Assembly (NCBI RefSeq): GCF_013315695.1
Contig: NZ_CP054353.1
Strand: one strand, 5' to 3'
DNA length: 64,000 bases
Origin: Escherichia coli
GTDB taxonomy: Bacteria; Pseudomonadota; Gammaproteobacteria; Enterobacterales; Enterobacteriaceae
Numbering within the stretch: the first letter of the stretch is position 1; each line of letters begins with the position of its first letter. Below the pieces are notes generated by a model. It searched no databases. It was not told the DNA's origin and worked only from the letters and a program-made list of their open reading frames with translations. Position numbers and translations under genes: made by a program. This document shows, one piece after another, positions 33,109-34,772 of the stretch.

Positions 33109-33921
33109 ATGCTCATTGACGATATTGATTTTGCAGACCTTTACCTTCAGCAACTCAGGCTGGCCCATCGCACAGAAAAAACGCCGGATCACTGGGATCA
33201 ACGGGCGGAAAAAATGGCGGAAAATTGCGCCTCGCCTACGGACAGCTACCTGCAACAACTGACCTCAAAAATTGACCTGCAAGGCGCGCAAACCTTATTC
33301 GATATGGGCTGCGGACCGGGTACCGTATCGCTGGCGCTGGCGGACAAACTCACGACGATTTATGGCGTTGATTACAGTCAGGGGATGCTGAACGTTGCCG
33401 CCCGTCGCGCCGCCGCGCTAAAGGCAGACAATGTCCACTGGATCCAGCGCGCCTGGGAAGAGGACTGGAGTGACCTGCCACGCTGCGATATTGCCGTGGC
33501 TTCCCGCTCCACTCTGGTGGCTGATATGCGCCAGGCAATGAGCAAACTGAATAATCAGGCACGGCTTCGCGTCTATACGACTCATCTGGTCAGCACCTCG
33601 TTCGTCTCTCCAGCCATTCAGCGGGCGGCTGGTCGGGAAGTGATCGAATTACCCAACTATATCTTTGCGCTCAACGTCCTGTATCAGATGGGAATTTATG
33701 CCCACGTTGATTTTATCCGTGGACAAAATTGCCAACAGGATAACAGCACCTGGGAACGTTTTGAGCAGAACGCCAGCTGGAGTCTTGGCGCGCTTAACGA
33801 CGATGAGCGTGAGCGGTTATATCGCTGGTATCAACAACAAGATGCTCGTGCCCTCGCCCCTGCCAGCCGCGACTGGGCGCTCATCTGGTGGGATAGCGTA
33901 CCGCAGGAGACACTGCGATGA
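33109..33921 (+). CDS. Class I SAM-dependent methyltransferase
   Basis: 270 aa with motif I LFDMGCGPGTVSLALA; embedded in the uptake operon. Confidence 0.75.
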   Translation: MLIDDIDFADLYLQQLRLAHRTEKTPDHWDQRAEKMAENCASPTDSYLQQLTSKIDLQGAQTLFDMGCGPGTVSLALADKLTTIYGVDYSQGMLNVAARRAAALKADNVHWIQRAWEEDWSDLPRCDIAVASRSTLVADMRQAMSKLNNQARLRVYTTHLVSTSFVSPAIQRAAGREVIELPNYIFALNVLYQMGIYAHVDFIRGQNCQQDNSTWERFEQNASWSLGALNDDERERLYRWYQQQDARALAPASRDWALIWWDSVPQETLR

Positions 33922-34772
33922 TTTTCCTTTCTCAGGCACAAATCGATGCGTTACTTCTGGAAGATATCCAGGGCGGTGACCTGACCACGCGAGCATTAAA
34001 TATTGGACACCAGCATGGCTATATAGAGTTTTTTCTCCGTCAGGGCGGCTGCGTCAGCGGAATTTCTGTCGCGTGTAAGATGTTAACTACGCTGGGATTA
34101 ACTATTGATGACGCGGTCAGCGACGGTTCTCAAGCGAACGCGGGTCAGCGGCTAATCCGTGCGCAGGGTAATGCTGCAGCACTTCATCAGGGATGGAAGG
34201 CAGTCCAGAATGTGCTGGAGTGGAGTTGCGGTGTTTCTGATTATCTCGCTCAAATGCAGGCGTTACTTCGTGAACGTTACCCTGATGGCAATATCGCCTG
34301 TACCCGAAAAGCAATTCCGGGCACCCGCTTACTGGCCTCGCAGGCAATTCTGGCTGCCGGAGGACTGATTCATCGTGCCGGATGTGCGGAAACCATATTA
34401 TTGTTTGCCAACCACCGTCATTTTCTTCATGACAATCAGGACTGGTCAGGCGCAATCAATCAGTTACGTCGCCACGCACCCGAGAAGAAAATAGTTGTTG
34501 AAGCCGACACGCCGAAAGAGGCAATCGCCGCGTTACGCGCGCAACCAGACGTACTTCAGCTCGACAAATTTAGTCCGCAACAGGCAACTGAAATTGCGCA
34601 AATAGCACCGTCGCTGGCTCCCCACTGCACGCTGGCTCTGACCGGCGGAATTAATCTGACAACACTCAAAAATTACCTCGACTGCGGCATTCGCCTTTTT
34701 ATTACCTCCGCGCCTTATTACGCGACACCGGCTGACATTAAAGTCAGTCTGCAACCCGCAGCCTCTATTTAA
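33918..34772 (+). CDS. ModD / nicotinate-nucleotide pyrophosphorylase (NadC)-like type II phosphoribosyltransferase family protein
   Basis: 284 aa with NadC-like ANHR, IVVEADT and LQLDKF motifs; start overlaps methyltransferase stop. Confidence 0.65.
   Translation: MIFLSQAQIDALLLEDIQGGDLTTRALNIGHQHGYIEFFLRQGGCVSGISVACKMLTTLGLTIDDAVSDGSQANAGQRLIRAQGNAAALHQGWKAVQNVLEWSCGVSDYLAQMQALLRERYPDGNIACTRKAIPGTRLLASQAILAAGGLIHRAGCAETILLFANHRHFLHDNQDWSGAINQLRRHAPEKKIVVEADTPKEAIAALRAQPDVLQLDKFSPQQATEIAQIAPSLAPHCTLALTGGINLTTLKNYLDCGIRLFITSAPYYATPADIKVSLQPAASI

What the first reader, a model, noticed from the sequence alone, without database searches (positions are those of the whole stretch)
33109..34772. 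Methyltransferase and ModD/NadC-like enzyme translationally coupled inside the transporter operon
The methyltransferase stop overlaps the ModD-like start, and both sit between the ABC ATPase and the receptor gene. The ModD-like protein retains NadC-type motifs (ANHR, IVVEADT, LQLDKF), hinting at a pyridine-carboxylate-type substrate. This enzyme pair may modify or salvage the transported compound.
Basis: inference. Interest (0 to 1): 0.6.

Follow-up and report, generated by a model that had tools for sequence, protein, structure and literature searches.

The report
Molybdenum-regulated TonB uptake operon with enzymes
The methyltransferase and ModD genes are real and translationally coupled, but their operon, which the E. 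coli literature calls a putative iron-uptake cluster, carries a conserved binding site for the molybdate sensor ModE, so it most likely serves molybdenum acquisition and not iron or pyridine-carboxylate salvage.

Summary
A 270-aa class I SAM methyltransferase (33109-33921) ends in an ATGA that starts a 284-aa ModD (33918-34772). Both lie between an ABC ATPase and a TonB-dependent receptor, and the quoted motifs are present.

The locus is the E. coli "prrA-modD-yc73-fepC" cluster, present in 39% of complete genomes and described as putative iron uptake.

New here:
- A near-consensus ModE (molybdate sensor) operator sits 23 bp upstream of the first gene.
- The same box lies upstream of the orthologous operon in 34 of 41 species. 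A second box precedes the receptor gene in 24.
- No conserved Fur box and no riboswitch were found.
- The permease's closest solved relative is MolB, from the H. influenzae molybdate importer.
- ModD has a NadC fold but lacks two quinolinate-binding residues. Elsewhere it follows modABC or is fused to ModC or NifQ.
- The methyltransferase family always occurs in molybdenum contexts, including one classical modA-modB-modD operon.

Best reading: a ModE-repressed, TonB-dependent molybdenum (or tungsten) acquisition system with a cytoplasmic two-enzyme module. The chemistry of that module is unknown. The pyridine-carboxylate idea is not supported.

The parts
30271..30276 (+). TTGACA, a -35-like hexamer of the operon promoter. 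IS1 ends 6 bp upstream of it.
   Evidence: Read directly from the sequence. The uninterrupted allele in strain MS 21-1 has the same hexamer. The promoter assignment is an inference; the simple scan did not call a canonical -10.
30292..30319 (.). ModE (molybdate-responsive regulator) operator: tTCGCTATATg-TGTAAG-TATATAGCGgT. Its centre is about 37 bp upstream of the SBP start codon.
   Evidence: It matches 17 of 20 specified positions of the E. coli ModE consensus ATCGNTATATA-N6-TATATANCGAT given in PMC545781. The core TATAT-N7-TAYAT occurs once in 64 kb against 0.11 expected. An orthologous box scoring at least 16/20 is present in 34 of 41 species.
30342..31364 (+). Periplasmic substrate-binding protein (Peripla_BP_2 / cluster A type) with a twin-arginine signal (LTRRRFTQ).
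   Evidence: RefSeq CDS. NCBIfam gives only weak hits, all far below cut-offs. The best solved relative is 4pag (95 bits); MolA/HI1472 gives only 34 bits over a partial stretch.
31364..32344 (+). FecCD-family type II ABC permease, closest to MolB.
   Evidence: PDB search: HI1471 (MolB, 2nq2_A) 222 bits, E 9e-65, ahead of FhuB 175, HmuU 168 and BtuC 146. All NCBIfam equivalogs fall below their cut-offs.
32341..33099 (+). ABC ATPase. It overlaps the permease gene by 4 bp.
   Evidence: HI1470 (MolC) is the best-scoring bacterial importer ATPase among the solved structures (126 bits).
33109..33921 (+). Class I SAM-dependent methyltransferase ('yc73') of an uncharacterised family. Motif I is DMGCGPG, the acidic residue is D88, and ASRST and RVYTTH are invariant.
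   Evidence: Pfam Methyltransf_25/31/12/11. No NCBIfam family reaches its cut-off. Family alignment A3. AF2 model pLDDT 89.7. Fold matches are only generic small-molecule MTases, TM 0.45-0.58 at 10-19% identity.
33918..34772 (+). ModD, a NadC-fold (type II phosphoribosyltransferase-like) protein. Its start overlaps the MTase stop (ATGA).
   Evidence: TIGR01334 500 bits against a cut-off of 179; nadC 134.5 bits against a cut-off of 198. Pfam QRPTase_N and QRPTase_C. AF2 pLDDT 96.1. TM 0.85-0.89 to QAPRTases. Residue comparison.
34798..36768 (+). TonB-dependent outer-membrane receptor ('prrA'), 656 aa, with a TonB box near DTLTVWS.
   Evidence: RefSeq CDS. TonB-siderophore, hemin and B12 family hits are all below their cut-offs. 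Only plug-domain similarity to solved receptors.

Best explanation
The six genes form one operon: SBP, MolB-like type II permease, ATPase, SAM methyltransferase, ModD and the TonB-dependent receptor. The operon belongs to the ModE (molybdate sensor) regulon.

When cytoplasmic molybdate is sufficient, ModE-molybdate sits on the palindrome that overlaps the promoter/5' region and shuts the operon off. When molybdenum is scarce, the operon is expressed. The receptor then uses TonB energy to bring a molybdenum (or tungsten) species across the outer membrane. The Tat-exported binding protein passes it to the MolB-like ABC importer.

The two cytoplasmic enzymes are a molybdenum-handling module and not a NAD or iron pathway. 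ModD has a NadC fold that keeps the ribose-phosphate/Mg and basic anion-binding residues but has lost the quinolinate-specific Arg and Lys. It most likely receives or activates the incoming oxyanion and passes it on toward cofactor synthesis. The methyltransferase most likely methylates a small molecule tied to molybdenum acquisition, either the carrier or ligand of the imported metal or a cytoplasmic Mo-related metabolite.

Shown in silico: operon structure, ModE boxes and their conservation, family assignments, and altered ModD active-site residues. Inferred: repression by ModE, molybdenum as cargo, and the roles of both enzymes.
For: 1. Operator. Positions 30292-30319 match the ModE consensus at 17/20.

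2. Genome-wide signal. Across 1.57 Mb of related loci the box-score histogram is bimodal (13:434, 14:91, 15:14, 16:15, 17:20, 18:30, 19:16, 20:3).

3. Conservation. In 41 species with the six-gene operon, 34 have a box of at least 16/20, in 33 of them centred 21-57 bp upstream of the SBP start (L039: 169 bp). All 24 with a ModD-receptor gap over 100 bp have a second box upstream of the receptor gene.

4. Positive control. The same box at the same geometry precedes bona fide modA genes in Pasteurellaceae loci in the same data set.

5. Other regulators. There is no conserved Fur box and no Rfam hit, so no cobalamin or Moco riboswitch.

6. Transporter. The permease is closest to MolB of the H. 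influenzae molybdate/tungstate type II importer. That system is molybdate-repressed and lies next to modD in H. influenzae.

7. ModD contexts. It follows modA-modB-modC-like genes in Pasteurellaceae. It stands alone behind a ModE box in Photobacterium. It is fused to a ModC-like ATPase (P0262) and to NifQ (P0314), and a truncated ModD is joined to two TOBE/Mop domains (P0290).

8. MTase contexts, all linked to molybdenum:
- type II ABC + MTase + Mop molbindin (L088);
- type II ABC + MTase + receptor + NTPase_1 with two ModE boxes (L089);
- ModE box-MTase-modA-modB-ModD (L094);
- receptor-ATPase-MTase behind a ModE box in Glaesserella.

9. Coupling. The -4 MTase/ModD junction is kept in 49 of 54 loci.
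Against: No experiment supports any of this. ModE binding, molybdate repression and Mo transport are all inferred.

The binding protein is not a MolA orthologue (34 bits over a partial stretch). The receptor has no informative relative. The cargo is therefore unknown.

Molybdate is small enough to cross porins, so the need for a TonB-dependent receptor is unexplained unless the cargo is complexed or very scarce.

A P. mirabilis modA mutant is still Mo-starved at trace molybdate (PMC10174112) although the species reference carries this operon (L027). The system therefore does not simply replace ModABC for free molybdate in laboratory medium.

No known biochemical step in molybdenum assimilation needs SAM-dependent methylation or a NadC-like enzyme.

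Seven of the 41 species lack a box of at least 16/20 upstream of the SBP gene. In Providencia the boxes there score only 14-15.
Confidence: 0.6

Rival explanations
1. The two enzymes are a minimal biosynthetic pathway for a small molybdenum chelator (a 'molybdophore'), made under Mo starvation. The receptor and ABC importer then take the Mo-loaded chelator back up, as happens with siderophores or opine metallophores.
For: Enzymes and uptake genes are co-regulated by the metal sensor in one operon, as in siderophore and cnt-type metallophore clusters (general knowledge). The TonB-dependent receptor and metal-chelate-type SBP and permease suggest a bulky complex. The MTase fold resembles natural-product tailoring MTases.
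Against: No exporter and no scaffold-building enzyme is present in the operon. ModD and the MTase also occur with classical modA-modB, which binds free molybdate (L094). ModD alone follows modABC in many taxa that have no receptor. Many loci have the MTase but no ModD.
Confidence: 0.13
2. It is a plain second molybdate/tungstate importer like MolBC-A. The methyltransferase detoxifies or conditions look-alike species brought in by the transporter, such as thiomolybdate sulfur, selenium or tellurium oxyanions. ModD acts as a molbindin-like buffer.
For: The permease and ATPase are closest to MolBC. The accessory slot after the MTase is filled in other lineages by a Mop molbindin or a small P-loop NTPase. 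Thiol S-methyltransferases (TmtA, GtmA) are among the fold neighbours.
Against: The fold neighbours are non-specific (TM about 0.5, 10-19% identity). The TPMT Pfam hit is insignificant (E 0.11). Nothing here links the family to Se, Te or S chemistry. A receptor for a porin-permeant anion remains unexplained.
Confidence: 0.12
3. The literature annotation is right: this is an iron (siderophore or haem) uptake system, and the ModE-like palindrome is incidental.
For: The cluster is cited as possibly mediating iron uptake in UPEC, APEC and O157 (PMC12928451, PMC1890555). The architecture of receptor, Peripla_BP_2 protein, FecCD permease and ATPase is that of iron-chelate importers. RefSeq names the SBP 'iron ABC transporter substrate-binding protein'.
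Against: No siderophore, haem or dicitrate equivalog reaches its cut-off. There is no conserved Fur box upstream in 14 loci from different genera; best scores are 9-14 of 19, which is background, and the best ones overlap the AT-rich ModE box. ModE boxes are conserved at two positions across genera. Linked genes are Mop, modA/modB and ModD.
Confidence: 0.06
4. One reading: ModD is a NadC-like phosphoribosyltransferase for an imported pyridine carboxylate (a quinolinate- or nicotinate-like compound), and the MTase modifies the same compound. This would be a NAD-precursor or pyridine-chelator salvage route.
For: ModD has a NadC fold with TM 0.85-0.89. It retains TRK, HR, E195 and D216, and the ANHR, IVVEADT and LQLDKF motifs. 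A PRPP-dependent reaction on some N-heterocycle is not excluded.
Against: The two residues that hold the quinolinate carboxylates in Mtb QAPRTase, Arg105 and Lys172, are Lys and Phe throughout the ModD family. The residue roles come from my recollection of the 1QPQ/1QPR papers. ModD scores below the nadC cut-off. It is a ModE-regulon gene that mostly accompanies molybdate transporters with no organic cargo.
Confidence: 0.05
5. It is a corrinoid or tetrapyrrole uptake and remodelling system.
For: The best NCBIfam hits are BtuC for the permease (243 bits) and CpaM, BchM or CbiT for the MTase (34-43 bits). The receptor hits the B12 receptor model (80 bits).
Against: All of these hits are far below their cut-offs. 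No cobalamin riboswitch was found, even with permissive filters. Regulation and gene neighbours point to molybdenum.
Confidence: 0.03

Closest known systems
MolBC-A (HI1470/HI1471/HI1472) of Haemophilus influenzae, a type II ABC importer for molybdate/tungstate
   Same: It has a FecCD-type permease and ATPase. MolB is the closest solved relative of the E. coli permease (222 bits) and MolC is a top hit for the ATPase. It is molybdate-repressed (PMC4031551). It is genomically linked to modD in H. influenzae (HI1473; PMC3928620).
   Different: The E. coli binding protein is not a MolA orthologue. The E. coli system adds a TonB-dependent receptor and a SAM methyltransferase. In Glaesserella, a permease-ATPase-SBP-ModD operon and a receptor-ATPase-MTase plus SBP-permease set coexist as separate ModE-box operons. 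The E. coli permease is nearer to the second set (61% vs 47% identity).
ModD (TIGR01334) of modABCD operons, e.g. Rhodobacter capsulatus and Geobacter 'modDABC'
   Same: The E. coli protein is a clear member (500 bits). Like other members it is tied to molybdate transport genes and ModE sites.
   Different: Here it is translationally coupled to a methyltransferase inside a TonB-dependent type II ABC operon, and it is not attached to modABC. The family's biochemical function is unknown everywhere.
NadC / quinolinate phosphoribosyltransferase (TIGR00078, e.g. PDB 1QPR, 2B7N)
   Same: Same two-domain fold (TM 0.85-0.89). The residues corresponding to Mtb Arg139, Lys140, His161, Arg162, Glu201 and Asp222 are conserved.
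   Different: Arg105 is Lys, Lys172 is Phe and Asn223 is Lys across the family. The score is below the nadC cut-off. Regulation and gene context are molybdenum-related and not NAD-related.
Fur-regulated TonB-dependent metal-chelate uptake operons (Fec, Fhu, Fep, Chu/Hmu) and metallophore systems with cytoplasmic release enzymes
   Same: Same transport architecture: receptor, cluster A binding protein, FecCD permease and ATPase. Cytoplasmic enzymes are embedded in the uptake operon.
   Different: The sensor is ModE, not Fur. The embedded enzymes are a SAM methyltransferase and a NadC-fold protein. Known iron systems use esterases or reductases at this position.

Membership tests
NadC / quinolinate phosphoribosyltransferase | Type II PRTase two-domain fold | tested here: met
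   AF2 model pLDDT 96.1. Foldseek TM 0.85-0.89 and rmsd 1.9-2.7 to QAPRTases.
NadC / quinolinate phosphoribosyltransferase | Score at or above the curated TIGR00078 cut-off | tested here: not met
   134.5 bits against a cut-off of 198.4.
NadC / quinolinate phosphoribosyltransferase | Quinolinate carboxylate-binding Arg105 and Lys172 (Mtb numbering; residue roles recalled from the 1QPQ/1QPR literature) | tested here: not met
   These residues align to Lys94 and Phe163, which are invariant or at least 90% conserved in ModD alignments.
NadC / quinolinate phosphoribosyltransferase | PRPP/Mg-side residues (Arg139, Lys140, His161, Arg162, Glu201, Asp222) | tested here: met
   R130, K131, H152, R153, E195 and D216 are conserved.
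NadC / quinolinate phosphoribosyltransferase | Catalytic activity on quinolinate plus PRPP | not testable with these tools
   Needs an enzyme assay or nadC complementation.
ModD (TIGR01334) | Score above the curated cut-off over the full length | tested here: met
   500.2 bits against 178.85, covering profile positions 1-277 of 277.
ModD (TIGR01334) | Genomic association with molybdenum transport or regulation | tested here: met
   ModE box upstream of the operon. Homologues follow modA/modB/modC-like genes or are fused to a ModC-like ATPase or to NifQ.
ModE regulon | Operator matching ATCGNTATATA-N6-TATATANCGAT close to the promoter | tested here: met
   17/20 at 30292-30319, ending 23 bp upstream of the start codon.
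ModE regulon | Conservation of the operator upstream of orthologous operons in other genera | tested here: met
   34 of 41 species upstream of the SBP gene and 24 of 41 upstream of the receptor gene. The score distribution is bimodal.
ModE regulon | ModE binding and molybdate-dependent expression | not testable with these tools
   Needs EMSA or footprinting and expression assays. No paper with such data was found in 10 searches.
MolBC-A-type molybdate importer | Type II (FecCD) permease and ATPase most similar to MolB and MolC | tested here: met
   HI1471 222 bits against 175 for the next hit. HI1470 126 bits.
MolBC-A-type molybdate importer | Binding protein orthologous to MolA | tested here: not met
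   Only 34.5 bits over residues 214-287. The best hit is the unrelated 4pag at 95 bits.
MolBC-A-type molybdate importer | Binding and transport of molybdate or tungstate | not testable with these tools
   Needs ITC or uptake assays.
Fur-regulated iron-chelate uptake system | Fur box in the promoter region | tested here: not met
   Best 19-mer matches are 9-14 of 19 in 14 genera, which is background level.
Fur-regulated iron-chelate uptake system | Components reach the cut-offs of a named siderophore or haem system | tested here: not met
   All Fec, Fhu, Fep, haem and B12 equivalogs are far below their cut-offs.
Cobalamin (Btu) uptake | Cobalamin riboswitch in the leader | tested here: not met
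   No Rfam match at E of 1 or below in 24000-42000.
Class I SAM-dependent methyltransferase | Motif I (GxGxG), acidic residue after strand 2, and a Rossmann-like fold | tested here: met
   DMGCGPG and D88 are invariant. Pfam Methyltransf_25/31. Model and fold matches.
Class I SAM-dependent methyltransferase | Assignment to a characterised substrate family | tested here: not met
   The best NCBIfam hit is CpaM at 43 bits against a cut-off of 180. Structural neighbours have at most 19% identity.

The most novel reading that the evidence does not exclude
This is the first dedicated TonB-dependent molybdenum acquisition pathway in enterobacteria. The receptor and MolB-like importer bring in molybdenum bound to an organic carrier, such as a foreign catecholate-type molybdophore, a thiomolybdate species or a molybdopterin-derived fragment from host or microbiota. 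Mo(VI) cannot be released by reduction as iron is. The SAM methyltransferase therefore frees it by capping the carrier's O or S donor atoms. ModD, a NadC fold repurposed as an oxyanion-handling enzyme, hands the molybdate on to cofactor synthesis. A marker long scored as an 'iron uptake' virulence gene cluster in ExPEC would then be a molybdenum nutritional-immunity countermeasure.
Probability: 0.2. Interest if true: 0.85.

Novelty: new variant of a known kind. Interest (0 to 1): 0.62.

Why it matters
The cluster is carried by about 39% of complete E. coli genomes. It is also found in Proteus, Providencia, Morganella, Citrobacter and other gut and urinary-tract bacteria. Pathogenomics papers list it as a putative iron system.

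If it is in fact molybdenum-regulated, three things follow:
- Virulence-gene catalogues mis-assign it.
- Molybdenum joins iron, zinc, nickel, copper and cobalt as a metal with a TonB-dependent uptake route in enterobacteria. Molybdenum feeds nitrate, formate, DMSO and TMAO respiration in the inflamed gut and bladder.
- The decades-old question of what ModD does becomes testable in E. coli. The newly recognised methyltransferase partner family gives a second handle on it.

Tried and rejected
- Rfam scan of 24-42 kb with permissive thresholds: nothing, so no B12 or Moco riboswitch.

- Simple promoter/terminator scan: counts at background, and no internal signals that would split the operon.

- Literature: all 10 searches used. 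I found only the 'prrA-modD-yc73-fepC, possibly iron' citations, MolBC-A papers and ModE consensus sources. No paper links this operon to ModE or to a TonB-dependent Mo route. Studholme & Pau 2003 and Tirado-Lee 2011 are not held, so I cannot exclude that the ModE site was listed there or in RegPrecise.

- Fur-box scan: background only.

- First attempt at a genome scan with a 33-sequence ModD alignment failed because it had no conserved stretch. A 15-sequence alignment worked.

- Fold search of the MTase gave no specific relative, so no substrate could be inferred.

- The SBP and receptor gave no informative solved homologue.

- P. mirabilis modA RNA-seq supplements are not held, so derepression of the operon in a Mo-starved mutant could not be checked.

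- The P0290 ModD-TOBE 'fusion' has a truncated QRPTase_C domain (93 of 169 positions). It may be a frameshift artefact, so I give it little weight.

- I first thought the MTase acts on the imported ligand. Finding MTase-modA-modB-ModD (L094) and transporter-less DUF2478-MTase pairs lowered that idea.
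Full report
**1. What is there**

The window is an E. coli chromosome. It is 100% identical over 7.7 kb to NZ_OZ547117. One co-oriented gene string lies between treA and ymgE/ycgR:

| Gene | Window coordinates |
|---|---|
| Periplasmic binding protein | 30342-31364 |
| FecCD permease | 31364-32344 |
| ABC ATPase | 32341-33099 |
| Class I SAM methyltransferase | 33109-33921 |
| ModD | 33918-34772 |
| TonB-dependent receptor | 34798-36768 |

The MTase TGA (33919-33921) overlaps the ModD ATG (33918-33920), with an AGGAG 8 nt upstream. The ANHR, IVVEADT and LQLDKF motifs are present. Neighbouring junctions are also tight (1-bp and 4-bp overlaps, 9-bp and 25-bp gaps). The promoter/terminator scan shows nothing above background inside the string.

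**2. Known identity**

This is the "prrA-modD-yc73-fepC" cluster of UPEC CFT073, O157 O-island 55 and APEC. Papers cite it as "possibly mediating iron uptake" (PMC1890555, PMC12928451). A place covering at least 80% of the query is present in 2137 of 5426 complete E. coli genomes. I found no functional study.

**3.

The palindrome tTCGCTATATg-TGTAAG-TATATAGCGgT lies at 30292-30319 and ends 23 bp upstream of the first start codon. It matches 17 of the 20 specified positions of the E. coli ModE consensus ATCGNTATATA-N6-TATATANCGAT, as quoted in Rodionov et al. 2004 (PMC545781). The core TATAT-N7-TAYAT occurs once in the 64-kb window against 0.11 expected.

I fetched 80 ModD-encoding loci, one per species. 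I mapped the six window proteins onto them and scanned them for the box.

- The score histogram over 1.57 Mb is bimodal. Counts fall to 14 sites at score 15, then rise to 15, 20, 30, 16 and 3 sites at scores 16-20.
- Forty-one species keep the six-gene order, in Escherichia, Citrobacter, Raoultella, Enterobacter, Klebsiella indica, Pantoea, Pectobacterium, Proteus, Morganella and Providencia. Protein identities go down to 44-50%.
- Of these 41, 34 have a box of at least 16/20; in 33 it is centred 21-57 bp upstream of the binding-protein start (in L039, 169 bp).
- All 24 species in which the ModD-receptor gap exceeds 100 bp have a second box just upstream of the receptor gene.
- Bona fide modA genes in Pasteurellaceae loci of the same data set carry the same box at the same distance, which serves as a positive control.
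- A Fur-box scan of 14 loci from different genera gives only background scores.
- No riboswitch is present.

The operon is therefore a conserved member of the ModE regulon. By geometry it is a repressed one, like modABC.

**4. The transporter**

The permease's best solved relative is MolB (HI1471), at 222 bits. FhuB scores 175, HmuU 168 and BtuC 146. MolC is the best importer ATPase. MolBC-A is a type II ABC importer. Its binding protein binds molybdate and tungstate with low affinity, and molB is repressed by molybdate (PMC4031551). In H. influenzae it sits next to modD (PMC3928620).

The E. coli binding protein is not a MolA orthologue (34 bits over a partial stretch). Its best hit is 4pag, which the search output labels only 'Periplasmic binding protein'. 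It has a twin-arginine signal.

The receptor has no informative relative.

In Glaesserella three operons lie side by side, each behind its own ModE box:
- a permease-ATPase-SBP-ModD operon;
- a receptor-ATPase-MTase operon;
- an SBP-permease operon.

The E. coli permease is 61% identical to the permease of the third operon and 47% identical to that of the first. The E. coli system is thus a relative of MolBC-A but not the same system.

**5. ModD**

ModD scores 500 bits on TIGR01334 (cut-off 179) and 134.5 on nadC (cut-off 198). The AF2 model (pLDDT 96) superposes on QAPRTases at TM 0.85-0.89, and no ModD structure has been solved.

Compared with M. tuberculosis QAPRTase:
- ModD keeps the equivalents of Arg139, Lys140, His161, Arg162, Glu201 and Asp222.
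- Arg105 is Lys94, Lys172 is Phe163 and Asn223 is Lys217. These changes hold across the family.

The roles of Arg105 and Lys172 in holding the quinolinate carboxylates are my recollection of the 1QPQ/1QPR work. They are not a tool result.

Elsewhere ModD:
- follows modA-modB-modC-like genes in Pasteurellaceae;
- stands alone behind a ModE box in Photobacterium;
- is fused to a ModC-like ATPase in the position where ModC normally carries its molybdate-binding TOBE domain (P0262; the usual TOBE position is general knowledge);
- is fused to NifQ, the molybdenum donor for FeMo-cofactor synthesis (NifQ role from general knowledge) (P0314).

ModD is therefore a molybdenum-handling protein built on a NadC scaffold. 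It is not a quinolinate enzyme, and its reaction remains unknown.

**6. The methyltransferase**

Motif I (DMGCGPG) and the acidic residue D88 are invariant, together with the family-specific motifs ASRST, RVYTTH and LPNYIY. No NCBIfam family comes near its cut-off. Structural neighbours are generic small-molecule MTases at 10-19% identity.

The family spans Gamma- and Betaproteobacteria. Every context I read is linked to molybdenum, directly or through partners (ModD, DUF2478) that I found in Mo operons:

| Context | Locus |
|---|---|
| Receptor-DUF2478-SBP-FecCD-ATPase-MTase | L083 |
| SBP-FecCD-ATPase-MTase-Mop molbindin | L088 |
| SBP-FecCD-ATPase-MTase-receptor-NTPase_1, with two ModE boxes | L089 |
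| SBP-FecCD-ATPase-MTase-receptor | L092 |
| MTase-ModD alone | L086, Edwardsiella |
| DUF2478-MTase alone | L091, L093 |
| ModE box-MTase-modA-modB-ModD | L094 |

In L094, modA, modB and ModD all score above their curated cut-offs. The constant is molybdenum, not the transporter type. The slot next to the MTase is filled by ModD, by a Mop protein or by a small P-loop NTPase. The -4 MTase/ModD junction is kept in 49 of 54 loci.

**7. Mechanism**

- Shown in silico: operon structure, ModE operators and their conservation, the MolB-like importer, the altered ModD pocket, and the molybdenum-only contexts of both enzymes.
- Inferred: ModE-molybdate represses the operon.
- Inferred: under Mo scarcity the receptor and importer bring in a molybdenum (or tungsten) species.
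- Inferred: ModD and the MTase act on the cytoplasmic side as a handling module.

I give about 0.85 to "Mo-regulated uptake system". I give about 0.5 to "cargo is complexed Mo and not free molybdate". The arguments for a complex are the receptor, the chelate-type SBP and permease, and the fact that a P. mirabilis modA mutant is not rescued at trace molybdate. I give only about 0.25 to any specific chemistry, such as MTase capping of ligand donor atoms or ModD as an oxyanion acceptor.

**8. Rivals**

- A minimal molybdophore biosynthesis pair is possible (0.13), but it lacks an exporter and fits the modAB contexts poorly.
- A MolBC-like molybdate importer with a detoxifying MTase is possible (0.12).
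- The iron, pyridine-carboxylate/NAD and corrinoid readings are each contradicted by tested features.

**9. Novelty and caveats**

The locus and both protein families are annotated, and the cluster has a name. Within what I could search, three points are new:
- the assignment to the ModE regulon;
- the recognition of a TonB-dependent branch of MolBC-like importers;
- the methyltransferase family as a constant molybdenum-context partner.

Two relevant papers could not be read: Studholme & Pau 2003 and Tirado-Lee 2011. RegPrecise could not be consulted. Prior notice of the ModE site therefore cannot be excluded.

All functional statements are computational.

Noticed in passing
window 29497-30264: An IS1A copy (768 bp, with target duplication CAAATTTT at 29489-29496 and 30265-30272) is inserted 6 bp upstream of the operon's -35-like TTGACA. 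It leaves the ModE box and core promoter intact but cuts off all upstream sequence. Of the 10 genomes listed, four (H7-H10) lack it and match only from query position 766 (window 30265); only two listed genomes match this stretch in a single 100%-identical piece.
   Followed up: partly
window 27540-29236: In the identical RefSeq genome, treA (periplasmic trehalase), just upstream of the IS1, is annotated as frameshifted. It is intact in strain MS 21-1.
   Followed up: no
L002 2578-3600 (E. coli MS 21-1): In this strain the binding-protein gene of the operon carries an internal stop and is annotated as a pseudogene. The operon is therefore decaying in some lineages. In Edwardsiella and Leminorella only MTase-ModD remain, still behind a ModE box in most Edwardsiella loci. 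P0112 is an ATPase-MTase remnant fusion.
   Followed up: partly
L024-L061, between ModD and the receptor gene (e.g. L027 10943-10970): Proteus, Providencia, Morganella and Pectobacterium have a 120-300 bp gap after ModD with a second ModE box of 16-19/20 upstream of the receptor gene. The receptor there has its own Mo-controlled promoter.
   Followed up: yes
L082 (Glaesserella australis) 2132-12881: This is a compound molybdenum locus with three ModE boxes (5903, 7062, 12877). It holds receptor-ATPase-MTase, permease-ATPase-SBP-ModD and SBP-permease operons. It also holds a 243-aa gene (6204-6935) with weak similarity to methanogenesis marker 11 and the TiaS N-terminal domain, of unknown role.
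   Followed up: partly
L063 (Photobacterium damselae) 8821-10861: ModD is a single gene directly behind a 19/20 ModE box. It is divergent from a CobW/COG0523-family metallochaperone-like GTPase.
   Followed up: no
L083 4556-5101; L089 10940-11461; L091 2727-3293; L093 7438-8004: Small P-loop proteins (DUF2478/PF10649 or NTPase_1/PF03266, 173-188 aa) take the place of ModD next to the MTase. In Bordetella petrii and a metagenome contig, DUF2478 and the MTase form an overlapping two-gene unit with no transporter nearby.
   Followed up: partly
L083 about 2545-2575: Upstream of the receptor gene is a perfect variant palindrome, CGCTATTCA-N6-TGAATAACG. It looks like a lineage-specific ModE-type operator that the E. 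coli consensus scan missed.
   Followed up: no
window 30342-30420: The binding protein begins MSLTRRRFTQILAS..., a twin-arginine (Tat) type signal peptide.
   Followed up: no
window 42085-43521: In the identical RefSeq genome, a leucine-rich-repeat domain gene downstream of cvrA is annotated as a pseudogene with an internal stop.
   Followed up: no
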